A stretch of DNA of 63,953 bases, filler included, from Kipferlia bialata (lineage: Eukaryota), in NCBI GenBank assembly GCA_003568945.1. It is 7 parts of 7 records of this genome, joined end to end, with 100 filler letters (N's around TTAATTAATTAA, not from the genome) between each part and the next. Parts side by side here need not be neighbours in the genome. Positions count along the whole stretch, not along the records: positions 42,651 to 54,567 come from BDIP01001157.1; 6 more parts are not named here. One strand, written 5' to 3'. Both the position numbers and the translations under genes were made by a program. This document shows positions 15,221 through 63,894 of this stretch, piece after piece (the stretch's first letter is position 1; each line of letters begins with the position of its first letter). The notes under the pieces were generated by a model. That model did no database searches, was not told the origin of the DNA, and was given only the letters and a program-made list of their open reading frames with translations.

Positions 15221-15839
15221 ATGCACTACCTCCCTGTCCTGCTGTGCCTGTGTGCATGGGTGTGCATGACTGTGGCCGAGTGCCCCCCCGAGGGAGAGGC
15301 AGACCCATCAGACATCGGGGCAGTGGTGGTGCTCTCAATTGAGGTATGGCATCATGACATATTTATAGGGAGATATATATAGATGGGTGTCCCCCCCCTC
15401 CCCCCTTCCTCTCACCCATGTGGCGTGTAATATAGTTAATGTGGGGTTGTTGTTAGCATATAGGTATGTTCTTGCTCAGTTGTTGTGTAACTAAGTACTG
15501 ATTTCCTATCCATTCATGGCCCTAACTCCCAGGGCGTCAACAAGCTTGCTGCCGACTCCATCCCAGACATCGAGGCATCTGCATTTGACCTCAAGATGGA
15601 GTACGTACCCTCTCACTCTCTCTCTCTCTCCCTCCAATATGCCTAGTGGCTACACGCTCCACATACACTCCATGCTATAGTGGAAACATGAGATGTACTT
15701 GAGTGCTCTCATCCTGGGATAACATCACGCTACTCTCGACTATCAACTATTCAGTTCCCACCCCCCTGAGGTTATTTGAGCATCTAGTAACATTGTTGTC
15801 AACTAGAGTCTATCTGTCGATGTCGTCTCTCCCTCTCTA

Positions 15840-15885
<46 letters not shown>

Positions 15886-15932
15886 TCTCCACCCTTACAC
15901 CCAGTGACATTGACACCTCCCTTGACCTTGTT

Positions 15933-15976
<44 letters not shown>

Positions 15977-16100
15977 CCCTTACACCCAGTGACATTAACA
16001 CCTCCCTTGACCTTGGCATCACTGTGGTTGATCTCTCAATCACCCAGCTCCTCTTTGCCAACTTCCACATCGGAGATATCAAGGGTATGTACACCTCTGA

Positions 16101-16132
<32 letters not shown>

Positions 16133-16695
16133 TCTCTCTCTCTTTCTCCCTCCCTCAATCCTCTCTCACCCCAGCCACCTCTCTGCCCCTGACCCAGGAG
16201 CTCATGCTCAACATGTAAGTGAAAATGGATAATATATATATGTATACTATAGATTCTAATAGATATATATCACATATAGTTGAAGTGGCAATGTATATGG
16301 ATTCTAATAGTATAGTGATATAAATATCACATATATAGTAGACCAGTATCTGTATGCATGTATGTATTTATGTAGAAGTACTTTTATCCCTGACCCAGGA
16401 GCTCATGGTCAACATGTAAGTGAAAGTGGATATACTGATACTGATTTGTATGTCGTGCCTAAACCTTTCCTATCAAGTAATTCATGCCTATATTTACATA
16501 TATATATATATATATTTATATTTAGGTATCGTCACCCTCTCTCTCTCAAGACCGCTTACACCAGGGATGACCTTGACCTTCAGCTGACCTTTCTCTCTGC
16601 CTATCTCTCTCTCTGTGTGTCTCTCTCTCTTTCTGTTAAAAGGATATACCCTTATACCAGGGATGACCTTGACCTTGAGCTGACCTTTCTCTTCT

Positions 16696-16740
<45 letters not shown>

Positions 16741-17694
16741 AGACGCTTATACCAGGGATGACCTTGACCTTGAGCTGACCTTTGACTGGGAGTACACAGA
16801 GGAGAGCTGGCCATTCAGCAAGGATAGCGGAACAGGTATGAATTCTCTCTCTGAACAGGTATGAATTCTCTCTCTGAATTGCTATATATATATGAGTATA
16901 TTCCTTTCAATATGTTTATATATACTCTACACATGACTAATGCATGAGGCACTGCCACCTGCACTGACTTCTCTCTCTCTCTCTCCTTCTCTCTCACTCT
17001 CTCTCTCTCTATTCATACACTTATACATCAGGCACTGCCACCTGCACTGGCATCTCTCTCTCACACTCTCTCACTATATATATACCTATTATTCTCACTC
17101 TAGGCACTGCCACCTGCACTGGCATTGGGGGTGAGGTTGTCATGGGGGTGGGGTTCGACCATGTCTGTGGTGTCCCGCAGGTATGGCTCTCTCTCTCTCT
17201 AATGTGTTTGTATGAATGGTGTCTCCATTGCCCCTCAGGTATCTAGTAGTAGGATGTACTCCCATACACATATATATAATATATATAATATATATATGTA
17301 TATAATATATATATATATTATATACATATACATGTGTATGGAGTGATTAGAGTGGGGATTGACCATGTTTTGGATACCTCATGTTTATATATGTGGCATA
17401 TGTATCTATGAAAATGTGTAATATCGATGTATGCTACGGTATCTCTCTCTTTCTCTTCCTCCGCTGTCATATATATCGATGATGTGTTCTCTCTCTCCCT
17501 CTACACCCTTAATTCCAGTTCATGGCTGACAGTGTCCTATTCTCTCTCTCTCCCCCTCTACACCCTTTATCCCAGTTCATGGCTGACAGTGTCAACCTGG
17601 ACCTCGGCGACATCAAGATCACACTCGACGGTATGGCATAATGCCTATTATACATGTACTGGGTGTCGTTTTGAGACACCACACTCTCTCTCTC

Positions 17695-17743
<49 letters not shown>

Positions 17744-19335
17744 AATAGTAAAGGTGGTGCCTCTCAGCTCTTCCAGCTCATCCTCAATGCATTCATCTCT
17801 CTCCCTCTCTCTCTCTATCTCTCTCTCTATCTTATATATAAGCGGTGCCTCTATCTATATATACTTATCTTACCCCTAGGTGGTGCCTCTCAGCTGTTCC
17901 AGCTCATTCTCAATGCCTTCATAGGACTGGTGGAGGATCTGTTCACAGATGAGCTCAACACACTCATTGCTGCTAGTATGACTGAAGGTACATAATTAGA
18001 CACACACACATATATATATATATATAGTATACATATACATTTATGTCATTGGACTGGTGGAGGACCTCTTCACAGACGAGCTCAACACTCTGATAGCTGC
18101 TAGCATGACTGAGGGTGAGTGTGTATATAATATACATATTATATACTATATTCTTACACACATATGTCTTCTGTCTACCCATCTCTCCCTCTCTTTCTCT
18201 CTCTCCCCCTCACCCCAGCCATCAACGAGGGTATTCAAGAGAGTACTGGACCTTCAAACGTCCCAGACGGCATGAAGGAGGTATATATATAACTATACTA
18301 ATATATGTATATATATGTGTGTGGATACATTATATATGAATAATATGTCAGTATTCATAAGTGCTATTATAGTATGTGATGGGTCTTACTTCCCAGACGG
18401 CATAAAGGAGGTATATAGCTAAGTATATAAGAATATTCTATGTGTATATAATATAATGCATACTATATAATGGAGAGAGAGACGTCCCAGACGGCATGAA
18501 GGAGGTATGACTACATGCTACTTTTATATATATATTTATGAATTGTGTTCCTTGTACTAGTATATATATATGTATATGAATACTGCCTTACCCCAGGACT
18601 TCCGCAGTCCCAACCCAGTTGTTGTCCTGGAGGACAACTACATCGCCATCCACTTCACAGCTTATGTAAGTGATTTCCACTGATGCCATATAGATGGATA
18701 TTGCGCTTTTTTGCTTGCTGCTGCTCACTCTCAGTATACATTTCTCTCTCCCCTTCCCTTACCCCCAGATCTACCCTGCCGACGAGGGTCCCACATGGTC
18801 AGGTACGCAATATCAGTATATGGGTATATATATGAATACATATACCTTTCAGTTCATTAGTCAGTGTATATATAGAGTGTCAGAGAGGTCTACCCTGCAG
18901 GTGAGGGTCCCACATGGGCAGGTACACTGCCTCTCTCTCTCTCATACATACACACATATATATGTTCTCTCTCTCCCTCTACCATCTGCCATGATGACAC
19001 AACATGATGACACAATTTCGTCATACCTACCCAATAGAACCAATGTATACACATCTACACATACATGTATATATTGCAGTGTATACCAAACCCACCCCAG
19101 CCCGTGATGCTATCATGCCCACCCCATTGCCCAACCTGGTCACCAGTGAGGACCTGCAGTTCGTGCTGTCCAACACGTACGTGATCCTCGCTCTCATACT
19201 GTTCTCTCTCATATATGAACATGAACTATCCCTCCATCTCTCTCTCTCCCCCCGACCCCAGTACACTTTCAGTGCATGTATCTCTCTCTCTCTCTCTCTC
19301 CCTACCCCCTTTACCCCAGTCTGTTTGAGTCCATG

Positions 19336-19371
<36 letters not shown>

Positions 19372-22298
19372 TATTCCTACCCCCTCTTTACCCCAGTCTG
19401 TTTGAGTCCTTGTTCCTCTCCAGTCTCCACCTTGGACTGCTCAAGGGCCAGGTCGACCCAGCTAAGGTAACTCCTCTATATATGTATAGATTCAGTCACC
19501 TATGTTCGTTCTCTTCCTTTCGGTACTGATACTCCTTTACCCAAGACCCCCAGCTGGCATCTCATCGTAAGGTACCATGTATACAGTATATATATGTTTG
19601 TTCATATATTACACCATATATATATAGTAGTACAGTAGTTAAGTAAATATATACATATATCATTAGTATTCTATAAATACATTGTGAGTATCTAACAATT
19701 AGGTCCAGGACCCCCAGCTGGCCTCTCTCCTGACCACCACATCCCTGGGGGCCATATGCCCAGGTATTGTATGGACATGTATACATACATAGTATGTATG
19801 TCCATTATATGTGTATATGACAATGTATATATCTCCTGACCGCCACATCCCTGGGAGCCATATGCCCAGGTATAGTATATCCCGATTCCAAAGTCACCTC
19901 TCTCTCTCTGACTAGACATATACTGTTTCATATACCTCATCCCTAGGCCTGTATGAGGCATACCCCGATGCCACAGTCCCATCTCTCTCTCTCNNNNNNN
20001 NNNNNNNNNNNNNNNNNNNNNNNNNNNNNNNNNNNNNNNNNNNNNNNNNNNNNNNNNNNNNNNNNNNNNNNNNNNNNNNNNNNNNNNNNNNNNNNNNNNN
20101 NNNNNNNNNNNNNNNNNNNNNNNNNNNNNNNNNNNNNNNNNNNNNNNNNNNNNNNNNNNNNNNNNNNNNNNNNNNNNNNNNNNNNNNNNNNNNNNNNNNN
20201 NNNNNNNNNNNNNNNNNNNNNNNNNNNNNNNNNNNNNNNNNNNNNNNNNNNNNNNNNNNNNNNNNNNNNNNNNNNNNNNNNNNNNNNNNNNNNNNNNNNN
20301 NNNNNNNNNNNNNNNNNNNNNNNNNNNNNNNNNNNNNNNNNNNNNNNNNNNNNNNNNNNNNNNNNNNNNNNNNNNNNNNNNNNNNNNNNNNNNNNNNNNN
20401 NNNNNNNNNNNNNNNNNNNNNNNNNNNNNNNNNNNNNNNNNNNNNNNNNNNNNNNNNNNNNNNNNNNNNNNNNNNNNNNNNNNNNNNNNNNNNNNNNNNN
20501 NNNNNNNNNNNNNNNNNNNNNNNNNNNNNNNNNNNNNNNNNNNNNNNNNNNNNNNNNNNNNNNNNNNNNNNNNNNNNNNNNNNNNNNNNNNNNNNNNNNN
20601 NNNNNNNNNNNNNNNNNNNNNNNNNNNNNNNNNNNNNNNNNNNNNNNNNNNNNNNNNNNNNNNNNNNNNNNNNNNNNNNNNNNNNNNNNNNNNNNNNNNN
20701 NNNNNNNNNNNNNNNNNNNNNNNNNNNNNNNNNNNNNNNNNNNNNNNNNNNNNNNNNNNNNNNNNNNNNNNNNNNNNNNNNNNNNNNNNNNNNNNNNNNN
20801 NNNNNNNNNNNNNNNNNNNNNNNNNNNNNNNNNNNNNNNNNNNNNNNNNNNNNNNNNNNNNNNNNNNNNNNNNNNNNNNNNNNNNNNNNNNNNNNNNNNN
20901 NNNNNNNNNNNNNNNNNNNNNNNNNNNNNNNNNNNNNNNNNNNNNNNNNNNNNNNNNNNNNNNNNNNNNNNNNNNNTATATGGACAGACGTATGGTTAAT
21001 GAATAGAGGCCACAGTCACTCTGGACCTCGACGCAACAGAGATGTAAGTGCAGATATGTATAGATATTTATGCCTGTGGCTAGATGCCAGTTTCCCAACT
21101 TTCTCTCTCTCTCTCTCTTTCTCTTGCTCACTCTCTCTCTCTCTACACCCTTAATGTCAGGCCCACCGTCACTGTCATGCCCAGTGCCCTGTTCTCCAAC
21201 GTCACAGGTACTTTCTCTCTCTTTTCCTCTCTGTCGGGTTGTACATAAGTGAATAGTGTGGTATTCACGTTTCTAACTGTCCATGTTTCTCTCCCCCCCC
21301 CCCTCTCTCTCTCAATATCTCACCCAGGCACTGTACATGTCTCTGTACATGATGAGGCCTCTCAGTCTATGGTCGACACCTTCACTGTCGGGTACAGTGT
21401 TGGACTTGCTGGTACACCCCAGTCACTCACAGGTATGTCTCTCTCTCACTCTCTCACTCTCTCTCCCCCCCCCCTCTCTCTTCCTCTCCCCTACTAAACC
21501 CTTACCTCAGAAACCCTGCACAATGCCGAGAATATGACCACCTTCTATATCGACTACACCCCCTACAACACCACTGGCTGGGAGATCGAGTCCAGCTATG
21601 GCCCAGTTGATATGGAGGGACCATCCGCCATGATGCTGCAGGTACATCATACACACATATATATATAGTAATATACATATATATGGTTGAGTTGATTATA
21701 GCATATGGATATGGATATAGAAGGCTCTACCTAGGGCCCTGTGGACATGGAGTCCATCTGCCATGATGCTGCAGGTGTATACAAGAATATATGTATATCT
21801 GTGTGTGTTGATATTTCTGTATGTTATGTCACATAACTTTCGTGTTTGTGAATTATCCATTTACTATTTTATACTGTTGATCTGTATATCTCTCAACACC
21901 CTCATCAAGTGAGTATCTTTCACCTTCCCTCTCTCTCTCTCTCTCTCTCTACACCCTTATTCCCAGATGTACCTCTCCTTCCTTGGTGTTGTGCCTTGGT
22001 TCAGTGACTGGACTCTACGCCACTCACCAAACTTCGGAATTGCAGGGGTACGATTGATGCTTGTATTGATAGACTACTTCTCTTCATTCCAGCCGTTATT
22101 ACCTGTATTGGTAGATTTCTCACGCCTTCACATCATACTAATTCGTCAGACTCAGTGACGTTTGAATAGACATATTATCAATATACCCTCATTCTCTCTC
22201 CCTCTCCCTCTTTCAGTCTCTCTATCGAGACCCTCATTTCACACCAGGACTTCTATGACTGGCAGAGTATATACCCTTGTTCTCCTTCTCTCTCTCTC

Positions 22299-22330
<32 letters not shown>

Positions 22331-22569
22331 CCTAGACCCTTATTTCACCCCAGGACTTCTATGACTGGCAGAACATGTACTCGGTGCTTGAGGTGAGTGT
22401 TCGTCTCTTGGATGTTGTGTCTGCAGTTGTCTCACTCTCTTCATTCATATGTCGGCATTCTACAAGATGCATTCTTCCTATATCCTCTCATATCCGACTT
22501 AGTTTCTCATCCTAGCCCCCTGGTGCTATAGTGTACAACGTGGCTATGATGCAGGACCTGCCAGTCTAG
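15221..22569 (+). CDS. Secreted BPI/LBP-like (TULIP) lipid-binding protein, many small exons, spans an N gap
   Basis: Signal peptide MHYLPVLLCLCAWVCMTVA, then GAVVVLSIEGVNKLA, LTFDWEYTEESWPFSKDSGTGTA and LGDIKITLDGGASQLFQLILNAFIGLVEDLFTDEL, which resemble the BPI N-terminal domain. Last exon is 22516-22569. Confidence 0.7.
19994..20976. other. Assembly gap (N run) inside the BPI-like gene
   Basis: Uninterrupted Ns without the stop-linker, flanked by exons of the same gene. Confidence 0.95.
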
Positions 22570-30622: not shown

Positions 30623-30633
30623 AAGAGGGAGAA

Positions 30634-30664
<31 letters not shown>

Positions 30665-31054
30665 GAGAGAGAGGGATGTATCAAGTACCATTCAGTGGTA
30701 CTAAAGGTTGCGGGATGGCTCCCTGTGTATGTATCTAAGTATTAGATAGTATGTATATGTACCTGCATACCAGTATGCACTGTGTGCGAAGAAGACCTTG
30801 GAACTGACACACGGCTAGGGAGGATCCCCCACCCCCTACAATACCCATGTGGGTGTGTGGGTGGGTGTGTGTATGTGTGTGGCTGAGCCACACAGCAACA
30901 GGAGAGGAACAGAGGCTAGGACTCTATTGCCACTGGCTGTATAGAGGGTGTCACCAAGGGGGTCCAAAAACAACGAACGAGAGAATCGGTGTGACACTCT
31001 CTAACCATACACATACTGTCACCACAACGTCCGCCTGCCAACCTTCTCTAAGGC

Positions 31055-37926: not shown

Positions 37927-38169
37927 TAGAATCTTTCTTGGGAACTTGTGGTGAACAGAACATGCATACTATAATGGACCATTATTAATGGTGACTTGAA
38001 TGGATTAGATGTCTGCTGGGTCTTTACACTTCTGCGGTGTAGTCATAGAGTCATAACTCTATTCACATAGTTCCTCAGAGTATGATATGTCAGTTTTCGT
38101 TGCTCAATGTTGTTCAACTACGATATATGGGCCATCTATGAAAGTAATGTGAATTTGGCTCGAAAGCCT

Positions 38170-39228
38170 TCATGTTATGAAGGGGGTCCACTCTCCCTCC
38201 ATAGCCTCTGTCTCCAGAGAGGAATGGTCTGACTGCACCCCATCCCTCTGTGCAGCTGATGTCCGACTCCCACGGGACATTGTAGAGAGCCCCCCGATCC
38301 CTGCCCCCTCCGCAGCAATGTCCACACCAACATCACTCTTGGTCTCAGAGGAGGCCTTTGAAGCAGCTCGGACTGGAATCTCAGTGGGACTCTCCCTCTG
38401 AGTCCTAAGGGCATGGGCAGTAGCCAGTCTCTCTGTCAGTGGAGTATCAAGAATGCTACTGATGTTCTTTGAGACCCTCTTTGAGACAGGATTGCATCCC
38501 AGGTTGATCTAGGGTTAGTAGCTGTACATCCAAGGCAAAATGTATTGGCATTGTTATGACAGAGAGAGATAGGAATCAGAGCTGTACCTCGGTCAGGTAC
38601 GGCATATATGGGAGAGCTCCTGCTAACACCCTGGCACCGTTCGTACAGATACCATTCCCTAGGATGTCTAGCTGACTGTCAGACCCAATGTTGTCTAGCG
38701 AGCATCTGGAGATATCTAATTCTTGGGACTGCTACTCACCAGCTCTAGATGGTTCAATGACTTTAGGCCGGTCGCCAGTGCGGTTGCGGCCCGGTGGTCG
38801 ATTCCAGCTGACTTTACATACAGCTTCAAGTGAGGAAGGCGGTGTATTTGGGAGTCTCTAACACAATATCGGAAAGATGGATACATACTCTCTTGAGGTT
38901 TGGTAAGTGTGGCAAGGCCGAAGCTAGTGCGACAAACCCCTGGCTGCAAAGGTCGCAACCGTTCAGGTTCAGCTGAAGGTGATGATAGTTCCAAAGGAAG
39001 CACGAGAGTATGCGTCCCACTCTGACATAACAAAGCATATGCTCCCCTAGAATACCGACCTTAAGACAGTCTTATGTCTCATACCTCTGTCCCACCATCC
39101 TTTCTGCACACCTTGATTCCGGCCACCACCCAGTGCCCCACTGTGTTCCCAAACATATGGGGTGCCTGACCCCAGGCACTGTCCAGCACCTCTGAGTAGT
39201 ACACCTCCCACTCCACCTCTGACCACAT
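38170..39228 (-). CDS. RI-like leucine-rich repeat protein, 5 visible exons (start may lie further upstream)
   Basis: LNLNGCDLCSQGFVALASALPHLPNLKR|LYVKSAGIDHRAATALATGLKSLNHLEL|LDILGNGICTNGARVLAGALPYMPYLTE|INLGCNPV...; the LRR exons are 84 nt and phase 0. Confidence 0.82.
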
Positions 39229-39733
39229 CCCAAGGAGTTGGGAACAGGAGATGTGCGATGGGCCTAATATAGAAATAGTTTCAAAACCCTGCGTACTCAG
39301 GACAGAGTAGAAGACCTCATAGAGGAGTGTTTCTTATATATTGACACTGGTTCATTGTCCAGCGCATGTTGGTTCCTATCTCTACCGTAAGTGACATCCC
39401 TGCGACCCTTTGTCAAGGCCTCCGTATTACGATATATACGGGATACAGGACATGGATACGTCGTATCATACGAAGTACTATCTCACCCTGTCACTTACAT
39501 TCTTTCTTTGCTTTTGAGGTACTGTTGATACTGTTAGCTTGACACAATAGATACCTTCTTAGGTGGCCAACTACTACCCAACAGTACACCACTAGATGCC
39601 GGCTCACTAAAAGATTGCTCGAGAGAGCTCATAATGGGGAGACACCGGCTGAAATACAGACTCCTTTTATACAAGTGCCGTACAATTACGTTCTTCGACA
39701 ACAAGAGAGGTTCCTAGAGTACAACTCCACACC

Positions 39734-40786
39734 ATGCCAAGTGTCGATGTGCACATACACGACATCCCTGACGTCGTTGATGCCATTGTGCGAATCGGAG
39801 ATAACCAAGCACTTGTGATAGGAGGAAACAAAATTACTGAGGCAGAGTGGGGGTGTGTTAGGGTATCAGTTGTACTCACACTCCTAAGTGATGGTACCAT
39901 TGAGAGTGAGACCCCCGTGCACTGTCCGGTTCCCATGTCTACTAGAGAGTTCTCCACATGTGCCGTCGGTAACGATGTGTATGTGTATGGGGGACGACAC
40001 AAATTGTGTGGAGCGCGTATACTCAATGACATGTATCTATACACAACAGACACTGGTGAGTGGAGACTAGTGCCTAAGAGAGGGTTATGGCCAGCAGCTC
40101 TGGTATTTCTCACAACCTTCTCCTTGGAGGACTCGTTGTACATGTGTGGAACTGGACGTACATCTCCAAATGCGGTTGAATTCTGGAGGTATACGTCACT
40201 GACTGGATGGCACAGAGTCACACCACCAGAGGGGAAGATACCAAACCTTGTTGACAGTTGTGTCACAGCAGGCAACGTAGCCTACTTCATCCACGAATAT
40301 CGGCGTATGACTCATACTATGAGTACATTCACACTGCCTTCTCGATTTTACTGTCAAATTGACTGTCAAATTGACACAGACTCTGTGACAGAGTTTCGTT
40401 TCGAGAATGCGTTCCTGTCATCTTTGGTACAGCCAGCTGTTGCTTATGGGAGGAGCATTATTGTCACAATTAGGAAGTACAGTCCCATTGGTTTGCCAGA
40501 ATACACTGACCATGTGTATGATATGGTGTCAGGTGAGTGGGTGCACTCCCAACAGTCTGTATGGACGGACCTCTGGAGGCAGTCAAGCTCAAATACGCAC
40601 ACATGCTGCATGTGTGACACATGCATGATATGGCCTAGCACTGTGTGGTGTGTGGCGGATTACCGTTATTCTTGCGAAGAAGCCAAGCGACCCCCGAAGG
40701 TAATGGCTTGGCAGTTAGCGCAGGAGAGGTGGGAAGACTGGGGTGAAGGGATGATATGGTGGATGGATGATATGACCATGGGGTAG
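39734..40786 (+). CDS. Intronless Kelch-type beta-propeller protein (350 aa)
   Basis: STREFSTCAVGNDVYVYGG...LNDMYLYTTDTGEW and VYDMVSGEW are Kelch-like motifs. Confidence 0.8.
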   Translation: MPSVDVHIHDIPDVVDAIVRIGDNQALVIGGNKITEAEWGCVRVSVVLTLLSDGTIESETPVHCPVPMSTREFSTCAVGNDVYVYGGRHKLCGARILNDMYLYTTDTGEWRLVPKRGLWPAALVFLTTFSLEDSLYMCGTGRTSPNAVEFWRYTSLTGWHRVTPPEGKIPNLVDSCVTAGNVAYFIHEYRRMTHTMSTFTLPSRFYCQIDCQIDTDSVTEFRFENAFLSSLVQPAVAYGRSIIVTIRKYSPIGLPEYTDHVYDMVSGEWVHSQQSVWTDLWRQSSSNTHTCCMCDTCMIWPSTVWCVADYRYSCEEAKRPPKVMAWQLAQERWEDWGEGMIWWMDDMTMG

Positions 40787-41525
40787 ACAATTTCTTCCGT
40801 ATACATAGATACAGTTTGCATGTTAGGAACAAATGCATCGCAATGCCCACAGTGACTGTGACAGACTGTCACTGACAGTCCTCCACGTCAAATCTTCTTT
40901 GCTGTTGGAAAAATCATGTTGGATTCCAAGTTGGAGTACATTATACTAGTACTCAATTGACAAGCACTAATGCACATACTTCCGGAGTTCTGTATGGCAG
41001 GCATATGTATTTGCTCCATGATACTGTTGTGGGCCACAACTGGTGTGGACTCCACTATGTGGCATTACTGTTGGGACAAATATTACTTCAACATTTATCT
41101 TCCACATGATACCATCACCCCCACCGGTGACACCACCCAGTCCCTATCACTAGCAGATGTCTTGACCTACACAGACAAGCTTGCGTCTGACAGAGGTTGG
41201 AACATCAAGATATAGGAGTGAATGACATTCACGCCTTCCATACTGTCTCCAGCATCCTCTGATAGAGTAGACAAGTGGATAAGGTCCCCACTAAACACAG
41301 TCCCATTCACAGTGATGGACACGGGGCAGTGACACTCCTTTTGGAGATCAGACAACACTATCACAGGAACCAGACAGAGGTACACCCTCTCTCGGTACTG
41401 GAAGGGGGGTACATATTCCTCTGTAGTCAACTGGCGCAAAGGACATTGACCATCCCTTGACAATAACCCATGCATACGCATGAGTTCTGGACACACACAG
41501 TGTCTGTCTCTCTTACACACTGTGT

Positions 41526-42450
41526 CTAGTCGTCACTCTGGCTGAGCAGACCCAGCTCCTCCTCCTCAATGGTGAGGCCTAGGTGTGAGTATGAATGTTC
41601 AGGGGTACTACAGGCTAATACATAGAGGGGCATGTGGAATAGAGACCTATACCTGGTACAGATGCATGGGCCATGGCCTCCTGGTCTCTCTCTCTCTCTC
41701 TCTCCCTCTCTCTCTCCCTCTCTCTCTCCATCTGTCTGCTGCGGTGGTTGGTGGAGGGGTGGTCAATCACCATCTCACACCTGGGGGGTCAGGGGCATAG
41801 ACATATGCATATACCATTATTATGAGATGGATATATATATATATATATATACACATACCTCTGGAGTGATGAGATTGACCCCTGTGCCAGTACCCCTCTC
41901 TCCTGGCAGTGCCTCACAAGGGCAGACCAGCCTGGGATCAGAGATGAGAGGGAGAGAGAGAGAGAGGGGGACAGTGCCTCACAAGGGCAGACCAGCCTGG
42001 GATCAATACGCACATATATGTATATATATGGATAGATAGAGAGAGATACATAATGCAACCCACCTGCGTCTCTGCTGAGCACCCTTGCGTTACCAAGGAC
42101 AATGCATGCAAAGCGACCCCTGGTGAGGGCAACATTCATCCTGGGGTGAGGTGGAATAGCCTCGGAGTGTATTGGGTATGTATACTAGTGTATATATGTA
42201 CCTTCTGAGGTCACTGAGGAACCCGATCCCCTGGCTGCCCGTCCTGACACAGGAGAGCACAATCACATCCTTCTCACGGCCTGGGGGGTGGGCTTTGCAA
42301 CATATACGTGTAGAAGTACACCAATAGAAGTATGTAGTGTAGGATATACATATCCAACAGTAGCAGGGTATCTATGAGTGCGTACCCTGGAAGGAGTCCA
42401 CGGATGCAATCTCCATATCGACAAGAGCGGTGGGTCCTAGGAGACCAGCC
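41526..42450 (-). CDS. UPF1/Sen1-like (DNA2/NAM7) superfamily 1 helicase, C-terminal exons only
   Basis: EIASVDSFQG|REKDVIVLSCVRTGSQGIGFLSDLRR|MNVALTRGRFACIVLGNARVL...WSALVRHCQERGVLAQG covers motifs V and VI, and reads closest to UPF1. Confidence 0.88.
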
Positions 42451-42650: not shown

Positions 42651-42743
42651 GACTGTCCCACCTGTTCCCAGTGTCATACACGGACATAGAGGTATATAAC
42701 TATCATTACACAAGTATCATTATACACTGATATAGAAATATAG

Positions 42744-42787
<44 letters not shown>

Positions 42788-42795
42788 AACCCTAG

Positions 42796-44773
42796 GTCTA
42801 CTGTGACCTGTATGAGTACAACACGGTGTCAGGTGGACTTAGGAGACAGGAGAGGGTGTCGGGGGATGACTACTCGATAGAGTTGTCTGCAGCAGTGGGA
42901 GAGTACTCAGCGGATGAGTCATACTCCAAGGTATATATACTGTCTATATGTATGTATATATATAGAGAGAGAGACAGGAGAGGGTGTCAGGGGATGACTA
43001 CTCGATAGAGCTAAGTGCCGCAACTGGGGCATACAGTGCTAGTGAGTCATACTCTAAGGTATATTTATGTATGTGGCATACAGTGCTAGTGAGTCATACT
43101 CCAAGGTATAAGTGTATGTGATATGTATGGTATTTACCGGTCGTATTCTAATCCGAGGTTGTCGTATCTATGTTTCTACTGTCACTGATACAGATGGGGC
43201 AGACTACATACACACACACACTCCATGTATATGTATGTGTGTGTACTAACCCTAGATCGTAGTCCCTGGTGCCACCTCCACCTTCACACATGGGACAGAC
43301 TACTCTCTCTCTCTCTCTCTTGCTCTCTTTATCTCTCTCTCTATGTATATATACTCACTCTAGGTTGTGATATCCGGTGCCACTCCTACGACCAGTACAG
43401 ATGGGGCAGACTACACCATATACGCAGGGACAACGAGCTCGGTGTACCTGGCACTGCTAGATGAGTACGTATACTACATACACCTAAACATTTGTAACTA
43501 TATATGTAAACATATGTATATATACGCACTACTGGACGAGTGAGTATATATAGACACTCTGTCCCTATAGCCTATGTATCTATACATATGCAATCTTTCT
43601 AATATATATATTGTATATAGACGCAGAGGCTTACTCTAGATACGGCATCAGTATTCTAGCCGATACCTCTGCCTCAGAGTACCCCCTGGTCATATATATA
43701 CTGTATACAGTACATGATTGTACTATATATAAACACACTACTACACACTCACTATATAGGTATGGTATCAGCATCCTAGCCGACACCTCTGCCTCAGAGG
43801 ACACCCTGGTCACAGGCACTCTGGATGTGACACTGGACAGCAGAGAGACATCGCAGGTACTAGAGATAAGAATGTATATCTATTGAACTCTATGTGTACC
43901 TGTATATTCACTAACTGTTTACGCTTTATCACCTCCCACCCCAGGTCGGGTCCAGGGTCACAGATATATATCATATGTACATACGTGTACTATATATATA
44001 TATATATATATATTTATCATTTATATATCCTATGCATTACTCACCCCAGGTCGGGTCCAGGGTCACCGACATGATCGACACAGACGGGGTGAGTGTGTAC
44101 ATATATATACTTATATGTATATGCGTATATATACTATGTATATACATGTATTGTCATACATACCGTGTCACAGACGTGATCGACACAGACGGGGTGGGTG
44201 GTGGGTATATTTCTCAGTCAGTGTGTATATATAGTTCACTTCCTGATATCCAATAACATAGTCCTTGTCTCTGAGGCATCTCTCCCTCTCTCCCCCCCCC
44301 CTCTCTCTCTACCTATATTCCTCACATCAGATCTCCTATAACATAGCCACTGCCCTTGTCTCCGAGGCATCCTTTGAGACAGACACAGTCCGGATCAGTC
44401 ATGAGGTATGGGTAAATATACAATACTATTGTACTGATACTTGATTTAATATTCATAGTGAATATTGCATTGCAAACATGAGTGTGCCTTTACCCCAGGT
44501 CCGCTTTGACGGGTACTCTATGCTGACATACGAGGGCACCAACACATTCATGACTGGGACTGAAGGTACTCTAATATTGATATAGACATTTGATTCTTTA
44601 TACATGTGGAGGGTACCTCTCTGTCTCTCTCTCTCTCTCTCTCCCTAGACCCTTATTTCAGGCTATCTTGTCCTCCCCTGTGAGTTGAATATACTAACCT
44701 CTCTCTCTCCCTCTCACTCTCCCTAGACCCTTATTTTCAGGCTATCTAGTCTTACCCTTCGAGTTGATTTTGC

Positions 44774-44813
<40 letters not shown>

Positions 44814-47800
44814 ATACCCTTACTTCAGGCTATCTTGTCCTCCCATTTGAGTTGAATGTTGCTGGGGAGTATACTGCCACTCTCTCTCTGCCTGTGTCCG
44901 AGTCCGAGACTTCGCTGGGGCCAAGCTCCTACTCATTCTCAGTGAGTATATATATACATATATATATTTATACATATATATATATATATAGTCACAGCTC
45001 ATATGTACTTTCTTTATTTGCATTTATATACTGAATACTATTCCTGAGTCCGATGCCCTGGGCCAAGCTCCTACTCATTCTCGGTGAGTATATATATTCC
45101 TAGTCTTAGTGTATATAGTATATACTATGTATGTGTATATACTATAGTGTGTTCCTTGTCTGACTCCGATGAATTCATACACTTAGTATGAAATGCTATT
45201 TACTCTCACATACAAATTATACTAATGTATAGGTCAGTGTGCAGCCCGGTATCACCATCAGCACTGTAGAGCTAGGGGGTGACCCAGACCCAGTGGTGGG
45301 AGGGGCCACTCTGCCAGTACTAAACAGCGAGGTATATAGAGTATGAATATGTGTATATATGTGTATATGATATGAATTTTGTACATATATATTGTGACCC
45401 AGACCCAGTGGTGGGAGGGGCAACACTCCCAGTGCTCAATAGTGAGGTACTGTATATACAGTGTATATACACTGTATTTATGTATATACATGTATATAGT
45501 GTAGTGAATGTATATATGTGGTGATTCCGACCCTGTGGGGTGTCTAAAGACAAAGAGTGTAGTGTAGTATACATGTTTCAATATATGTCATCTGTACCCT
45601 CTCTCTCTCTCTCTCTTACCCTAGAGCTCTAGTGTGACAGTGTCTGGCACCACCACCTATGCCCCCTCCGTACCCTCATGGGTGTCATCCACTGCTACAG
45701 AGTTCCTAACCCTGTCTGCCGCCATGCCATACGGCATAGTGCTGTCAGGTAATACATGTATATATACATATATCGTGTATCTTTGTATATAGTGCGCGTG
45801 TATATGTACAAGTGCATTGAGTTCGTAACCCTGTCTGCCGCCATGCCATATGGGATAGTATTGTCAGGTATATCTAACCTATACATAACTATCCCATGTA
45901 TCATGTGTATGATTTATATGTATGTTCAAGTGTATCCATTGGGATCGTGTCTATGTCTACCTCCATGTCCTATGGCATAGTGTCATTAGGTACTGAGTAC
46001 ACCGTTCAGTGTCTGTATATATAGTGCACTTCTCACCCCAGGCTACGATACCGACATGAACATCACCCCCAACGACTACTCTGGTGTAGTATATATATAT
46101 GTCATATGTGTAATATATATATATATTTGTAAATGGATATATTAGTCATATAGTGCACTTACACTAGGGTATGATACAGACATGAACATCACCCCCAACG
46201 ACTACTCTGGTGTCTCAGCCCCCTCCCTGACAGTGGCCAATGCACTATCCACCTCTGCCTCCATGCTAGACTACGCGATAGATGAGGCGGGTCGTATCAG
46301 AGCCACAGTGGCGTCATACCTCCCATACTGCAGTGAGAGTGCACCCTTGACACTGGCCTTAGATGTGTCATCTGCCTCGGAGGTATGTATATTTTTTTTT
46401 TCTCTCTCTCTCTCTGTTTCTGCATTGGAGGTTAGGATCTCTCATATTCACACACACACACACACTCTCTCTCTATATATACATATGTGGATGGCGCTGG
46501 AACTCGATTTGTCTGTGTGAGCATCCCATTCACTCTCTATCCCCTGTCTGTTCTCTCTCTCTCTCTCCCCTCCCTCTCTATTGTTCTAACCATAGGTGTA
46601 TGTATGTGTCCCCTTCACATTATATCCACTGTCTGCTGCTGACATGCTATCAACAGCCACGCAGGAGGGGTACACATCGTGGTACAGACCTGACACATGG
46701 TGAGTGGTTATATTTACTTAATTTTAATATAGTCATGTATACATTATATAGTATACATAGAGAGAGAGAGACACATCGTGGCACAGACCTGACACATGGT
46801 GAGTGATATATACATTATATATATATATATATGTGGGTGTGATACAGTATACACAGAGAGATAGAGAGGAGAGGTACACATCATGACACGTTGTGAGTGT
46901 CATTACTACATATATATGTAGTAGATACACTATAGTACATGGTTTCCGTGTTCTCACTCCAAGGTCTGCTGGTGTCTACACGGGTGGCACCGTCCACTCC
47001 CCAGGGTCCAGTATATCAGACAGCATTACACCTGTGTACGGAGAGACCCACGGCCTCACACCCCTAGAGATGGGAGTAGCATCCACCCTCTCAGACACTG
47101 TACTAGCACACCTCACCCTATCGACAGACACCACTGTAGACGCTGACGGTGTCTCTCTCAGATACTACAGGGTGGATACAACCACTCTAGAGATTGAGTA
47201 CTATGAGCTACCCTTGCCTGTGAGTACATTGAGCTCCGATCTAGACACCTTGTCTGTTATTGATGTGGCCTGTACCGACGCCGGGGTGGACTTTAGCCAT
47301 GGGACTGATACTGGTAGTGACAGTGATACATACACTGGGTACCCACTGAGGTGCATAGAGCAGCTGCTGGACAGTGTGCACTGGGCCAACGGTGGCACAA
47401 TATGGCACTCACTTGAGGTATATATATATATATATATATATAGATAGATATATATAGATAGATATTTAGATATGATACATAGAGCAGCTGTTGGACAGTG
47501 TTACACTCCTTTGAGTACATGTATATTATCAGACTTCTTAGTGTGTCCTCCCTCATCTCTAGATATCTGTGTGACTTGCCCCGTATGTCCATACCATGTA
47601 TATATACATATATACATGGTATAGTGTAGCCATACGTATCTAACTCTAGATCTCTGTATGGCTAGCCCCCTCCGCTACTGAGTCATTAGAGTACAGACCA
47701 GTCTTGGACAGTGACCCAACATCCACAGAGACCTCTCTCCAGTACGCATCGATAGGCCTAGCACCCTATAGTGCTACAGAGGTCCTGTACACACAGCTCT

Positions 47801-49463
47801 ACTACACAGTAGATACCCTACCTGACACTGTGAGTCTACTGGATCTAGCCACTGCCTTTGTAGACCTTGGTGTATCCGACGCTGATGGTAACATACATAG
47901 CTATGACGCCACTGGAGTCAGTGGTACCATCTATCAGTACATGGATATCGAGACCATATCCCCCCTGACACTGTCCCTCTCTGATACGTGTACGGGGAGT
48001 GACCTTGATAGTGAGTACTACGTATCAGTGGACATACTCACCGGAGGGGGTACCTTCAACCTAGAGTGCGTCACTCTATCGGGTGTGTTCACTGGCTTGG
48101 TGCCTATCTCTGTCACATTACGCGGCCCCAGTGCCTCTCGCACTCTGCTATCAGTCTACTACACCCCTGTCCTGTCTCCAGTTCTACTGGACGCAGCGAC
48201 TGGGGTGCTGATAGAGAGTGAGAGTACTACAGCGACCGAGGAGAGCACAGTGTCGACAGATGTGACGTATGGCTCGCTGCATGAGTTCTCGTTCGATACA
48301 GTGCTTACGGAGGACCAGGCTGATGTGTTTATAGCGGGTGGCATACCCTACACCCACAGCCTGTTCTCCTCTGAGCCTGTGATACCCTACCAGACATTCG
48401 ACCCACCCACTCTGGCACCTATTGGGTTGAATATCACGATAGGTGTGTATATGTATATGGATGTATATGTATATATATATATATATACATTTATTTATAT
48501 GTACCCTACCAGACACTCGACCCGCCCACACTGTCGCCAGTGGGGTTAAACATAACCATAGGTGTGTGTGTATCTGTATACGCATACGTCATTATGATGT
48601 GACTGTATATATGTATGTGTTGTGTCTGATCCCAGGCACGCAGGAGTTCTGCACGTCCTCGTACCCTAGCGATGCAGTGGAGTCAGACAGACAGAGTATA
48701 GTGGAGAGTGCACTACTATCCAGTGTTGACACATCAGGTAGAGCATCAAATATATATATATATATATATGAATGTATTATATATATATATAGTATAATAG
48801 TAACCCTCAGGTGATGGGGAGAGTGATACGCGGGACACAACCTTCAGTCTCACTGGGGTATCCGCCACACACGGTACAGTCACACTGCTATCGAGTGAGG
48901 TCACATACACTGTAGATTCCTCCTTACCATACACATGCGGGTACTACGGCGGTACAGTCGAGTACTCACTCCCCTACTCCCCTATACTCGACAAGGGTAT
49001 ATCAGGGGATGAGGTGGTTGTGGAGCTAGAGTACAACAGTGACACGGTGTACAGGTTGATAATGCCCATATCCATACAGACAGTGTATGCAGACGCCCAG
49101 TGGTGGACATACACGAAGCGAGTGGTGGTGTGGACTATAATAGTGTTCATACTTGTCACAGCCTGTGTGACTGGCCTTGTGTTGCGTGTAAGGAGTGTGG
49201 CTGAGAGGAGAAGGAGGCAGCGAGAGAGAGAGCTCAAGCTAGAGGCTAGGGAAAGGGCGTTAAGGGTGGGTAGGGAGGGTACTATGGGAGATGCGAGGGA
49301 GATGGCTGTGATAGTGGAGGGTATTAGGACAAGCACCCACTTTAGACGGTCAGTCTCCATGCGGTCTCACTCCGTGGCGCACTCGCATACCCCAGTAGTC
49401 TATGCCTCGCCAGTCATACTGCCCAATAGCACATTCGATGATGAGGGGAGGGGGTATAGGTAG
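42796..49463 (+). CDS. Type I single-pass membrane/surface protein, 5' partial, Ser/Thr/Asp/Tyr-rich ectodomain, many exons
   Basis: Exons give a beta-strand-like acidic ectodomain, then the TM segment VVVWTIIVFILVTACVTGLVL and a basic stop-transfer RVRSVAERRRRQ. Stop at 49463. Confidence 0.72.
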
Positions 49464-49748
49464 AGGGGAATCGGTGATATCCACCAGTGTAATTGTACTT
49501 CAAATAGAGATACCATCGTTTCCTTTTCTGATAGTCTGTCTGAGACAGAAGAAAGCAGTTGTATACATTATTGGAGTTGATACTCTAATGCAGGCGAGAT
49601 TTACGTCTCATTACAATATCCCGAGTCTCATATATAGGAACACCTATAACATTGCCTACGTCTATTGAAATCGCGTCAGCCACCTACTGCCGGAATACAA
49701 ATCTAGCCTCCGCTTCCCCTATATCTGTGGATATACACACATCTGCAG

Positions 49749-51915: not shown

Positions 51916-51960
<45 letters not shown>

Positions 51961-52116
51961 TCAATATGTAATTATAGGGTGTCAGTGACAGACGGTGAGA
52001 CAGGGGATACATGTAACTGGAAGTAATTTGGGTGGGAGTTAATGCATCTGTATATGTTACTCTATATGTGATAATACAGCAACGTACTGACGCATGACAC
52101 CAGCATGACGTCGATG

Positions 52117-52149
<33 letters not shown>

Positions 52150-53387: not shown

Positions 53388-53437
<50 letters not shown>

Positions 53438-54486: not shown

Positions 54487-54515
54487 CTATGTCTGATATT
54501 AGTATACACATAAAG

Positions 54516-54567
<52 letters not shown>

Positions 54568-60462: not shown

Positions 60463-63400
60463 CTTTGGATCATTCTGGGTGACTGTCTGCTTGATCCGGA
60501 TGTACATGGCATCTCGGTCACTGGGGGTGAAATAGGTGTATATGTATATCATATGTCATGTATATATATGTGTGTACACGTAACACATCAATGTATCCAA
60601 GTACATGGCATCTCGGTCACTGAGGGTGAAATTGTATACTGATATATATGGATATATAACAGACTAAACTTGTTTATATATATGAATACTGGTACCTGAT
60701 GTTGAGTCTGATGCCTCTCATCTGGGCCAGGGTTGCATTGGATATGGGTCTGCCACTGCTGAGCTGGGGGGTGGACCTGATATGAGTAGGGGGGAGGGTA
60801 TACACAGGTATTCATTGAATGCTATGATGTACACTACCATCGTCACATCCACCCACCTTGGTGCAATCTGCGCCTCCTCTCTCTGCCTCTGTCTCCTGAG
60901 CGTTGCCTCTCTCTTCCTCTCCTCCTCCTCCGCCTCACTGTCATCATCATCGTCACTGCCCTCTGCCTTGCGGGACTTGAGCATAGACAGGGGGGCTGGG
61001 GTAAAGGGGAGGTAGTGAGGTTGAGTGATACTGCCACAATACATCAATGTCTATCCATACACAGATATACATCCCCCACCTGGCTGTCTCTTGATGGCAG
61101 ATGGATTGTGTGTCTGCACATCCTCTCCCATCACAGGCTCTCTCTCTCTCTTGACCCCAGGTCTAGTGAACACCCTCCTCCTCCCAGACACCCTGTCACT
61201 CCCAAGGGCATTGCCTGGGGTGAGACACAAATATCTATATACATGGTCATATACATGTATACATATTCGAATACACCCACCGACTGTGTGCCCTGCGTGC
61301 CCCTTGACTGCCCTGCCACTGGCCAGGTCCTGCTTAGCGGTACATGCATCACAGCACCCATGGGTATAGGGGGGCTCGGGCTTGGAGGCAAAGTATCTGC
61401 AGTGAGGTACGGGCATATACACATAGGTGGAGGAATGGAGTCTATACACTGTCTATATACCCACCTGAGCAGTATCCCCCTCCTGCATGCCTTTGCTGTG
61501 AAGCAGTGCTTGAGGGCATCCAGGGAGGCAGCCTTCACAGCAAGGGGGCCCACCTGGTTCTTGCGCCACCTGGGGGGTGAGTATGACACTGGTTGAGAGA
61601 GCAAGCTCATAAGTACTCACTAATGCAGCTCTTGAGAGAGTATCAGTACCAGTGCATATATACCCTATACTACCTGTAGTCCTTGGGCGAGTAGTACACC
61701 AGGGACACACTGGGCAGACCGTCTCTGCCAGCTCGGCCACTCTCCTGGGGTAAGACGCCCACCAACAATGCTTAACATACTAATACTGGTGAGATATATA
61801 CTGGAACATACCCACCTGGTAGTATGCCTCCACACTCTTGGGCATGTCCCAGTGGACAACAAACATGGGGGTCAGGGGGGGGGGGAGTGTAGCCTACATT
61901 CCCTCAACAATATCTAGGATATACTCGTATACATATGACATATACCTGACGTCTGCCTTGTCAACCAAGCTGACTACATATACACACTCTTATATACATA
62001 TATCTATATATCCAACCTGACGTCTGCCTTGTCGACTCCCATCCCAAATGCAATGGTGGCCACAACAACCTGGATCTGGGGTCAGAGAGAGGGGGAGATG
62101 GGTTCATAGACGCTATACAAGTATGCATTCAATGACGATACTGGTGTTTCAGCCCGCTACCAACACGTATCCATATATATATATTTATATATACATATTT
62201 ACATATACATATATACATATATACATATACATATATACATATATATACCAACACCCACCCTGTCGTTTGACCAGTCTGTCAGGACCGTCTCCCTGACCTC
62301 AGGGTCGAGGCCTGGGGTGAGGGGCCAGGTATACAGAGTATCACGGGCAATGCCACTGCTCCTTCCCCAATAAACCATGGGTAATTATGAGTTCTGAATA
62401 CCACACATACACCTGCATGGTACCCCTTGGATATCACACATATACTGTATACTGTTACATGTGTGACACATATACACACCCCATCCCACCTGCATGGTAC
62501 CCCTGTGATGTGATGCCGTTGGACTGTAGACAGGATGCCAGTTCAGTGGTCAGGTCACGTCTGGAGACATAGATGATGCCGCACTTGCCCTGGGGTGAGG
62601 GTATAGACATGGGTATATTCATGTATATAGATATAGATACATACATTGACAAATATCAATACATGTGTGTGTATGAATACAGATGTCACACACTCCCTGT
62701 GTAAAAATAGAGGGAGAGTGATACTGTACAGCACAGGTTATATATGTATCACCATGATATCACCACCCATACCCTGTACTCCCTGCTCTTGAGCTCCTGG
62801 ACCAGATCATCCACCTGGGGGTCAGGGAAGAGGGGGTGGATAGGTATAACGGGGGATATACTATCATTTACTATATTAGACGCACCACAATATACCACCC
62901 ACCTTGTCCACCCCGTCATACTTCTAGTACTTAACGTACACACTATGTGCAATGTGCAATATGGACTATATACTAATCTCCTCACCTTGTCCACCCCGTC
63001 CTCTATCTAGTGCGCATCATACTTAGTCTTAACATATATACAATTCACTCTGCCATGTATACCCACCTTGTCCACCCCGTCCTCTATCAGGGCATTCACA
63101 GACCGGACCTGGGGTGAGAGGCAGATGAACACAGAAGATAGACTCACACAGACATGCACACCATATTGCCCACCTGATACCGGATGTTGCGTCTGTCAAA
63201 GGAGGTCTGCATCATACGACTGGGGTCAGGGGGTATGAGAGTGAACGAACAAACATACACATATACACTTAGAATGTTATACACACATATACGTACGGTC
63301 TGTCGAGTGCCAGTCCCTTCACGATGGAGTCTGACACCTGCTTAGTGGCAGTGGCTGTCACGGCACACACAGGCACACCGGGCCATCTGGGGTGGGGTGG

Positions 63401-63894
63401 GGGGGTAGATAGATGAAACAGCGACGGTACTTCGGGAGAAGCCAAAGGGTAGATGAGAAAGAGTATTACAATGTATGGTACCCACCTGAGCACACATCCA
63501 AACAGAGAAAGAATATGAATATACACACATATACACACCCCCACCCACCTCCCCTTGATGCTGTTGAGTCTCTTGTATGCCGGTCTGAAGTCATGGCCCC
63601 ACTCACTGATACAGTGGGCCTGGGGGATGAGGGGGCGAAGAATACATATATATGTATGTATATCTCAGATACTGATACAGTGGGCCTGGGGGGAGACAGG
63701 AGGTCTACATAGTAGAGACAGTGGGATGATACTGATACAGTACCGCATACACACAGGTAAGGATATATATATATACATGATTTGTATATCATATATCGTA
63801 CACATATACCCCATACCTCATCCACTGCCACCATGGCCAGTCTGCCAGAGGCATGCAGCCTATCTAGGATGTGGCCGGCAGAGGCCTCAATGCC
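60463..63894 (-). CDS. recQ: RecQ-family DNA helicase, partial at both ends
   Basis: VAVDE|AHCISEWGHDFRPAY, AVTATAT, SFDRRNIRY, GIIYV, YHA|GL, VVATIAFGMGVDKADVR|FVVHWDMPKSVEAYYQ|ESGRAGRDG. Confidence 0.93.

What the first reader, a model, noticed from the sequence alone, without database searches (positions are those of the whole stretch)
42796..43105. Deeply diverged but in-frame shadow with Ser TCN/AGY switches, plus a chimeric third copy
Seen: exon 42796-42930 ends RQERVSGDDYSIELSAAVGEYSADESYSK|GT. The shadow 42971-43058 reads RQERVSGDDYSIELSAATGAYSASESYSK|GT with no indels, and includes TCT/AGT and TCA/AGT serine switches and TTG/CTA leucine. A third piece, 43075-43105, matches the shadow but carries the exon's TCC codon. 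Established: TCN/AGY interchange needs several substitutions and marks long coding divergence. Inference: the donor was an old paralog or homeolog. In a surface protein such pieces could act as silent diversification cassettes, by analogy to vls or pilS systems.
Basis: partly seen in the sequence, partly recalled or inferred. Interest (0 to 1): 0.8.

Follow-up and report, generated by a model that had tools for sequence, protein, structure and literature searches.

The report
Introns stacked from displaced splice junctions
In a free-living relative of Giardia, most long introns of the three genes examined hold spliced-out copies of the neighbouring exon ends that differ mainly by silent changes, likely left behind when DNA repair copied a diverged version of the same gene and joined it imprecisely, which would make these introns a record of gene versions the cell no longer carries.

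Summary
The gene is Kipferlia bialata KIPB_005093. A spliced contig joins exon 42796-42930 directly to 43364, skipping the shadow; a DNA contig carries the shadow collinearly with the next exons. Such exon-end 'echoes' occur in 29 of 48 introns of three unrelated genes, RecQ included, against 0 of 598 control pairs. They sit on both donor and acceptor sides, mostly about 60-140 nt apart, and keep GT/AG (35 of 37). Of 116 differing codons, 75 keep the amino acid; neutral decay after tandem duplication gives 33-38% (0 of 600 simulations). Silent differences crowd towards the splice site, and the intron flank is often unrelated. Best reading (0.55): homologous repair copies about 110 nt from a diverged allele, fails to re-anneal at the non-homologous intron and is end-joined, pushing the old exon end into the intron. 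No donor paralog was found. The 'chimeric' third copy rests on one base. The vls/pilS analogy is not supported. My searches found no description of this.

The parts
42796..42930 (+). Expressed exon of KIPB_005093 (first exon that could be checked); its last 88 nt are echoed
   Evidence: Matches protein P0001; covered by the spliced contig of run X2 and joined to 43364
42931..43363 (+). 433-nt intron built as a nested stack: two donor echoes, a 52-nt core, two acceptor echoes
   Evidence: removed whole in the X2 contig
42971..43058 (+). Donor echo 1 (the 'shadow'): 88-nt copy of the exon end followed by GT, offset 128; 40-nt near-identical block, then a deeply diverged 48 nt
   Evidence: bases 42985 onward covered with 0 differences by a DNA contig of X1
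43075..43105 (+). Donor echo 2 (third piece): 31 nt followed by GT, 47 nt after echo 1, 30 of 31 identical to it, with a different intron start
   Evidence: inside the X1 contig
43106..43157 (+). 52-nt GT..AG core with CTAAT ahead of the AG, inferred to be the oldest intron remnant
   Evidence: Sequence; age is inferred
43158..43208 (+). Inner acceptor echo of the next exon's start, decayed, with a 20-nt exact distal block
43256..43303 (+). Outer acceptor echo of the next exon's start, with a 3-nt indel
43364..43464 (+). Next exon, the splice partner of 42796-42930
43640..43692 (+). Acceptor echo in intron 2 (offset -120), silent differences near its AG; skipped in RNA
   Evidence: (joint 43464-43760, GT..AG)
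42796..49463 (+). KIPB_005093: 15 mapped exons, orphan protein with one C-terminal membrane helix; 12 of 14 introns carry echoes
15221..22569 (+). KIPB_005082, LBP/BPI-type lipid-binding protein gene; echoes in 12 of 18 introns tested
60463..63894 (-). RecQ-type helicase gene (part; modelled by hand, named from recalled motifs); echoes in 5 of 16 introns

Best explanation
The shadow is a spliced-out intronic copy of the exon end, one of many such copies, and is likely a formerly working exon end displaced when homologous repair copied a diverged allele of the same gene and finished by end joining. Inferred steps: a break falls in an exon near an intron; one end invades a homologous chromosome whose exon is similar but whose intron is not alignable; it copies about 60-140 nt (exon remainder, splice site, start of the foreign intron); on release it is joined to the other end by microhomology end joining instead of annealing. 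The incoming junction becomes the working one and the resident junction is pushed into the intron. The mirror event gives acceptor echoes, and repeated rounds give nested stacks. Such duplications would be harmful inside an exon, but are tolerated here because splicing uses the outermost sites (shown for three introns). The echoes probably do nothing; they lengthen introns.
For: Skipped in the spliced contig, present in a collinear DNA contig. 29 of 48 introns carry echoes, 0 of 598 controls; all 26 introns of 193 nt or more have one, none of 15 up to 123 nt. Silent bias: pN/pS 0.18; 75 of 116 differing codons silent against 33-38% under neutral decay; 68 of 98 with one echo per junction, null 39 +/- 5%. 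Only about a tenth or less of mutational exposure can have been free of selection. Third-position differences 37 of 69 in splice-proximal halves against 10 of 69 distal; 7 of 8 long echoes show it, 1 tie. GT/AG kept in 35 of 37, while the 30-nt intron flank is no closer than unrelated introns in 20 of 35, as for alleles with different introns. Deeper echoes are more decayed (6:12 against 69:29 silent:replacement, P 0.006). Machinery: failed SDSA plus polymerase-theta joining makes 0.1-10 kb tandem duplications in C. elegans (PMC8654963). K. bialata is listed with PolQ, Dmc1 and Rad52 and without Ku70, and fornicates lack Rad51A (PMC8516963). Dmc1 tolerates mismatches (PMC7809202 abstract).
Against: No second allele or strain was seen, so the template is inferred, not observed; the metagenome scan was blank. 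The focal core (16 differences in about 33 nt) is very deep for alleles of one species. Microsatellites are not enriched at the distal joins (18 of 44, expected 15.3), and microhomology cannot be scored without the template. 8 of 35 echoes have clearly homologous intron flanks and many short ones are exact, so a share are plain tandem duplications. The three genes were picked because they showed repeats; another intron-bearing stretch (30623-41900) gave 1 of 80 local repeats, a coding one, and the model does not explain such differences between genes. The narrow 60-140 nt step is unexplained; worm duplications have a median near 1 kb. No DNA piece was listed across the exon-to-shadow link 42930-42945.
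Confidence: 0.55

Rival explanations
1. Echoes begin as ordinary identical tandem duplications and are later refreshed by gene conversion from echo-free alleles that still use that junction, so they keep a coding signature without having been displaced by an incoming copy.
For: Also predicts silent bias, retained GT/AG and a homogenised distal block; exact short echoes exist.
Against: Needs long coexistence of echo-bearing and echo-free alleles at half of all introns. Does not predict that deeper echoes are more decayed, nor three different intron starts behind one exon end.
Confidence: 0.14
2. The donor was a homeolog in an ancient hybrid or duplicated genome, or a paralog, since lost or unannotated; echoes are scars of homogenisation between two subgenomes (closest to the first reader's idea).
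For: Multi-step silent switches in the focal echo (3 of the 5 found in 44 echoes); the genome paper reports two k-mer peaks, read as diploid (PMC5874029).
Against: No second copy in four protein searches. Three distinct intron starts at single junctions (focal intron, KIPB_005082 intron 9, RecQ intron 5) exceed two subgenomes unless introns turn over quickly. Divergence varies widely, from exact to saturated.
Confidence: 0.14
3. Plain tandem duplications that span splice sites and then decay neutrally, as in junction-spanning minisatellites.
For: Head-to-tail layout; 8 of 35 echoes with homologous intron flanks; known precedent in human F7 intron 7 (PMC1557585 abstract).
Against: Rejected for the set and for the focal pair (0 of 600 and 0 of 3000 simulations), even though the null let the exon fix silent changes only. 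Exon parts 90-100% identical beside unrelated intron flanks. It may hold for a minority of echoes.
Confidence: 0.06
4. Silent diversification cassettes (vls/pilS-like) that are recombined into the exon; deletion between the near-identical blocks would swap the echo in, in frame and with its donor.
For: The 40-nt shared block and the intact GT make such a swap structurally possible; the protein has one membrane helix and weak Ig-like leads.
Against: Most differences are silent, so little protein diversity is on offer; echoes occur in RecQ and a lipid-binding protein; one RNA contig, no variant letters listed (contigs drop rare forms); the organism is free-living (PMC5874029).
Confidence: 0.04
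5. Assembly artefact that laid two haplotypes in tandem.
For: Steps of about 110 nt resemble a short-read length; X1 may be the assembly's own source sample; the exon-to-shadow link is not covered by a listed DNA piece.
Against: One 1069-nt contig of X1 is collinear with 42945-44013, with 0 differences and 0 gaps in the 930 bases aligned, at a depth like other contigs (384 against 379 and 416). No exact repeat of 28 nt or more lies in 42796-44013 to allow a jump. Decay with depth is not expected of an artefact.
Confidence: 0.04
6. The shadow is a minor alternative or tandem exon using a cryptic AG at 42965-42980.
For: AGs ending at 42965, 42971, 42977 and 42980 would give open, in-frame exons of 93, 87, 81 and 78 nt.
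Against: These AGs lie in an (AT)n(AG)n run without the C/T-rich context of all 14 real acceptors; the spliced contig skips the piece; echo offsets show no frame preference (13/10/13); it cannot explain acceptor echoes that lack donors.
Confidence: 0.03

Closest known systems
Tandem duplications from polymerase-theta joining of failed SDSA (C. elegans helq-1 and brc-1; PMC8654963, passages read)
   Same: Head-to-tail duplication proposed to come from an extended break end that is end-joined rather than annealed; the size range starts near 100 bp; K. bialata is listed with PolQ and no Ku70.
   Different: There the template is the identical sister, the median size is about 1 kb and the events are mutant scars. 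Here the two copies differ like diverged coding alleles, step about 110 nt, and sit at splice junctions in a natural genome.
Human F7 intron 7 37-bp minisatellite spanning the exon-intron border (PMC1557585, abstract read)
   Same: Copies of an exon end plus donor inside the intron; the most upstream donor is used and the others stay silent.
   Different: F7 pseudo-sites are identical in sequence and form one VNTR. Here there are 1-4 copies per intron at many introns, on donor and acceptor sides, with silent-biased divergence and often unrelated intron flanks.
Aborted SDSA finished by ligase-4-independent end joining in Drosophila gap repair (PMC8951532, passages) and template switches to 72%-identical donors in yeast (PMC12891019, passages)
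   Same: Homologous copying that stops and ends by end joining; in-frame mosaic genes from diverged templates.
   Different: Experimental single-locus events; yeast repair-associated tandem duplications average 23 bp. Neither passage set describes junction stacks in introns.
Borrelia vls silent cassettes (PMC2632889, abstract read); Neisseria pilS (recalled)
   Same: Silent, partial, in-frame copies near an expressed coding sequence.
   Different: vls converts one surface-antigen expression site at high frequency and changes the protein. Echoes are scattered over unrelated genes, mostly silent and include splice sites.

Membership tests
vls/pilS-type silent cassette system | Cassettes supply amino-acid variation | tested here: not met
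   75 of 116 differing codons silent, pN/pS 0.18; the focal echo changes 3 of 29 residues
vls/pilS-type silent cassette system | Confined to a surface-antigen expression locus | tested here: not met
   Also in KIPB_005082 and RecQ
vls/pilS-type silent cassette system | Frequent conversion gives variant expressed sequences | tested here: inconclusive
   One RNA contig, no other letters listed; contigs drop rare variants
Tandem or mutually exclusive exon | Own acceptor in normal context | tested here: not met
   Only AGs in an (AT)n(AG)n run, unlike 14 of 14 real acceptors
Tandem or mutually exclusive exon | Included in mRNA | tested here: inconclusive
   Skipped in the one spliced contig; minor forms would not show
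Junction-spanning tandem repeat (F7 IVS7 type) | Pseudo splice sites stay silent and the outer site is used | tested here: met
   Introns 1-3 of KIPB_005093
Junction-spanning tandem repeat (F7 IVS7 type) | Units alike across exon and intron parts | tested here: not met
   Intron flank at unrelated level in 20 of 35, clearly homologous in 8 of 35
Failed-SDSA/TMEJ tandem duplication | Head-to-tail duplication of about 0.1-10 kb | tested here: met
   Median nearest offset 108.5 nt, range 57-204, 34 junctions; at or below the low end of the range
Failed-SDSA/TMEJ tandem duplication | Microhomology or templated insertion at the join | not testable with these tools
   Template allele not available; the proxy test (microsatellite at the join) was negative, 18 of 44 against 15.3
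Failed-SDSA/TMEJ tandem duplication | PolQ and homologous-recombination genes present | tested here: met
   From a published table, not my own search: PolQ, Dmc1, Rad52 listed for K. bialata, Ku70 blank (PMC8516963 Supplementary Data 2); HELQ is not in the files searched
Failed-SDSA/TMEJ tandem duplication | Identical sister template | tested here: not met
   Silent-biased divergence needs a diverged coding template

The most novel reading that the evidence does not exclude
Across the K. bialata genome, tens of thousands of introns grew by accretion of splice-junction modules captured from diverged alleles, each intron a nested, time-ordered archive of lost gene versions. That would be a new route of intron and genome expansion driven by mismatch-tolerant Dmc1 repair without NHEJ, sequence evidence of outcrossing or hybridisation in a fornicate, and a natural assay showing that its reduced spliceosome picks outermost sites on both sides.
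Probability: 0.4. Interest if true: 0.85.

Novelty: new variant of a known kind. Interest (0 to 1): 0.68.

Why it matters
K. bialata has 124,912 introns against 3-8 in its parasitic relatives (PMC5874029) and 11,743 in Aduncisulcus (PMC9933649), and its genome has been read as the ancestral, unreduced state. If long introns are recent stacks of displaced junctions, part of its 51 Mb is derived growth (this speaks to intron length, not intron number). Echoes would let one genome be mined for past allelic diversity, repair tract lengths and evidence of genetic exchange. They also test splice-site choice: an intact upstream decoy acceptor is passed over, which simple first-come scanning does not predict. 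In practice they can mislead gene prediction and read mapping.

Tried and rejected
No whole genome is held, so echoes could not be searched genome-wide at DNA level. Paralog or homeolog searches: (exon 13, longer proteins; whole protein, 50% cluster representatives, which would hide a close paralog) returned only the protein itself; (residues 14-420, shorter proteins) returned none; (KIPB_005082 piece) had 1 candidate, itself. Metagenome scan for another isolate: 38 pattern matches, none confirmed. Pfam: 0 families for P0001. Atlas: filamin/GEX2/invasin Ig-like clusters at 0.84-0.87, leads only. Microsatellite-guided joins: not enriched. In-frame exon extension: offsets mod 3 were 13/10/13. 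Chimeric third copy: one base. Reads were laid only on 42660-44100, so introns 4-14 and the other genes have no read check; no DNA piece was listed over the exon itself, which proves nothing. The gene at about 31-37.9 kb was not modelled (one search failed), so it has no intron count. Dropped before counting: one low-complexity hit in intron 6, the introns around the N gap of KIPB_005082, and the annotated first intron of KIPB_005093. Literature searches for a prior description (listings only) showed none; the library lacks most subscription papers. Earlier-findings look-ups were empty.

Full report
Setting. The window is seven contigs joined by N linkers. The finding lies near the start of the contig 42651-54567. 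A long exon there matches KIPB_005093 of Kipferlia bialata at 100%. Fitting that protein gave 15 exons with GT..AG introns from 42796 to 49463. The protein has one strong membrane helix near residue 957 and a Ser/Thr-rich outer part, no Pfam family and no relative among 1.84 billion representatives; Ig-like Atlas hits are under 0.9 and are leads only. A surface location is plausible, not shown.

Exon end and shadow align without gaps over 88 nt with 19 differences; 8 of 11 changed codons keep the residue, among them TTG/CTA, TCT/AGT and TCA/AGT. The differences are uneven: 1 in the first 40 nt, 18 in the last 48. The third piece equals the shadow at 30 of 31 bases. Its exon-like TCC is most simply explained by one later C-to-T change in the shadow, so chimerism is not shown.

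Real and intronic. Two runs of one sample were laid on 42660-44100. A 1069-nt DNA contig of X1 aligns at 42985-43293 and 43361-43981 with no difference or gap, and its coordinates are collinear with 42945-44013. No exact repeat of 28 nt or more exists in 42796-44013, so a graph built on 31-base words (the word size of that assembly is recalled) has no place to jump. X1 may be the assembly's own source, so this is a second assembly, not a second sample, and no piece was listed across 42930-42945. A 4279-nt contig of X2 (labelled RNA by guess, but spliced) runs exon 42796-42930, then 43364-43464, then 43760-43856, and its loose end continues with exon 4's letters. It skips the shadow, the third piece and the acceptor-side copies in introns 1-3. 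Rare isoforms would not show.

It is a pattern. A self-comparison showed dozens of short-range repeats. In KIPB_005093, 12 of 14 introns hold a copy of the upstream exon's end or the downstream exon's start; only the 73- and 93-nt introns lack one. Adding KIPB_005082 (LBP/BPI type, PF02886) and a hand-modelled RecQ-type gene gave 44 echoes in 29 of 48 introns, against 0 of 598 non-adjacent exon-intron pairs at the same score. All 26 introns of 193 nt or more have echoes, none of the 15 up to 123 nt, and 3 of 7 in between. These genes were chosen for showing repeats. A window-wide scan listed 80 local repeats: by my count 44 in these three genes, 19 in 49.8-54.5 kb, 5 in one coding repeat ORF, 1 in 30623-41900 and 11 elsewhere (it masks microsatellites and missed the focal pair). 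So genes differ strongly.

Anatomy. An anchored scan found 19 donor and 17 acceptor echoes with 0.2 expected by chance; 35 of 37 echoes that reach the exon boundary keep GT or AG; offsets show no frame preference. The nearest echo lies a median 108.5 nt away (57-204), and further echoes add similar steps. In the introns with both kinds that I inspected, donor echoes lie upstream of acceptor echoes, around a core. The focal intron reads: donor, echo 1, echo 2, a 52-nt GT..AG core, two decayed acceptor echoes, acceptor. Removing echoes cuts the median intron from 264 to 137 nt; echo-free introns have a median of 93.

Not neutral decay. Differences fall 37, 12 and 90 on codon positions 1, 2 and 3; pN/pS is 0.18; 75 of 116 differing codons are silent. 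A null in which the echo mutates freely and the exon fixes only silent changes gives 33-38% and never reached the observed 65% in 600 runs; the focal pair was 0 of 3000. With one echo per junction the figures are 68 of 98 against 39 +/- 5%. Matching the data needs about 10% or less of mutational exposure free of selection. So both versions were working coding sequence for most of their separation. In the eight echoes of 40 nt or more with a splice site, third positions differ at 37 of 69 sites in the splice-proximal half and 10 of 69 in the distal half (sign test P 0.016). The 30 intron bases beyond GT or AG are no more alike than unrelated introns in 20 of 35 cases and clearly homologous in 8. 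In RecQ, five of six echoes match the exon at 95-100%, and five of six have unrelated flanks. Echoes further than 145 nt away carry more replacements (6:12 against 69:29, P 0.006). The focal echo is the longest and holds 3 of the 5 multi-base silent switches: an extreme member of the class.

Mechanism (inferred). These features fit two alleles with similar exon interiors, diverged exon ends and non-alignable introns, placed in tandem. In C. elegans, an extended break end that fails to anneal is joined by polymerase theta and leaves a tandem duplication of 0.1-10 kb (PMC8654963, passages). Aborted SDSA ending in end joining is also known in flies (PMC8951532, passages), and yeast repair can switch to a 72%-identical template in frame (PMC12891019, passages). 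Metamonads lack NHEJ, and fornicates lost Rad51A and keep Dmc1 paralogs (PMC8516963, passages); its Supplementary Data 2 lists PolQ, Dmc1 and Rad52 for K. bialata and no Ku70 (one picture-only file not searched). Dmc1 is mismatch-tolerant (PMC7809202, abstract). I propose that a break end copies about 110 nt from a diverged homolog, runs into its foreign intron and is end-joined, so that the new junction works and the old one is buried. The gradient would follow because exon interiors are homogenised by ordinary recombination while ends tied to a non-alignable intron are not. Shown: location, silence in the main transcript, coding-type divergence, nesting, decay with depth. Inferred: the template, the direction, the enzymes. 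Against: no donor allele seen, no microsatellite signal at joins, unexplained step size and gene-to-gene variation, and a depth of divergence that may need hybridisation.

Long coding divergence is right. A surviving paralog was not found (annotated proteins only). The cassette analogy fails on two tested features: vls changes the protein at one antigen locus (PMC2632889, abstract), while echoes are mostly silent and occur in a helicase gene.

Novelty. Junction-spanning repeats with silent pseudo-sites are known (human F7, PMC1557585, abstract; lead from earlier findings). The parts of the genome paper I read (PMC5874029, parts 1-3 of 6) count introns and report diploidy but mention no such copies; passages of PMC6679479 and PMC9933649 do not either. 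Passages of PMC7407515 and PMC5783719 gave background only. Five searches listed nothing describing it. I rate it a new variant of a known kind: known parts, but a silent-biased, two-sided, nested form at most long introns of three genes. Interest 0.68; the limit is one window and no second allele.

Noticed in passing
window 61864-61816 (minus strand): The acceptor ahead of this RecQ exon reads AT instead of AG, next to a C run; an assembly error or a non-canonical site.
   Followed up: no
window 30623-41900: A contig with an apparently intron-rich gene (repeat protein, by eye) has almost no echoes, so the process is uneven between genes.
   Followed up: partly
window 49800-54567 (minus strand): Unmodelled gene or genes with 19 local repeats, including about four stacked copies of one acceptor near 53654-54100.
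   Followed up: no
window 26349-26504: In-frame coding repeat with offset 105 nt inside a long acidic ORF; the same size class as the echoes, possibly one tolerated inside an exon.
   Followed up: no
window 13205-13374: Three stacked acceptor-type copies ahead of a small gene whose later exons carry CxxCxxC-type motifs.
   Followed up: no
window 42653-42697: The first 13 annotated residues of KIPB_005093 come from the contig start and may be intron sequence; the true 5' end is missing.
   Followed up: no
window 15708-15769: An open, protein-like piece inside annotated intron 2 of KIPB_005082 may be a missed exon.
   Followed up: no
window 43525-43539: A 14-nt donor echo in intron 2 (ALLDE, three silent changes, offset 75) fell under my threshold, so echo counts are lower bounds.
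   Followed up: partly
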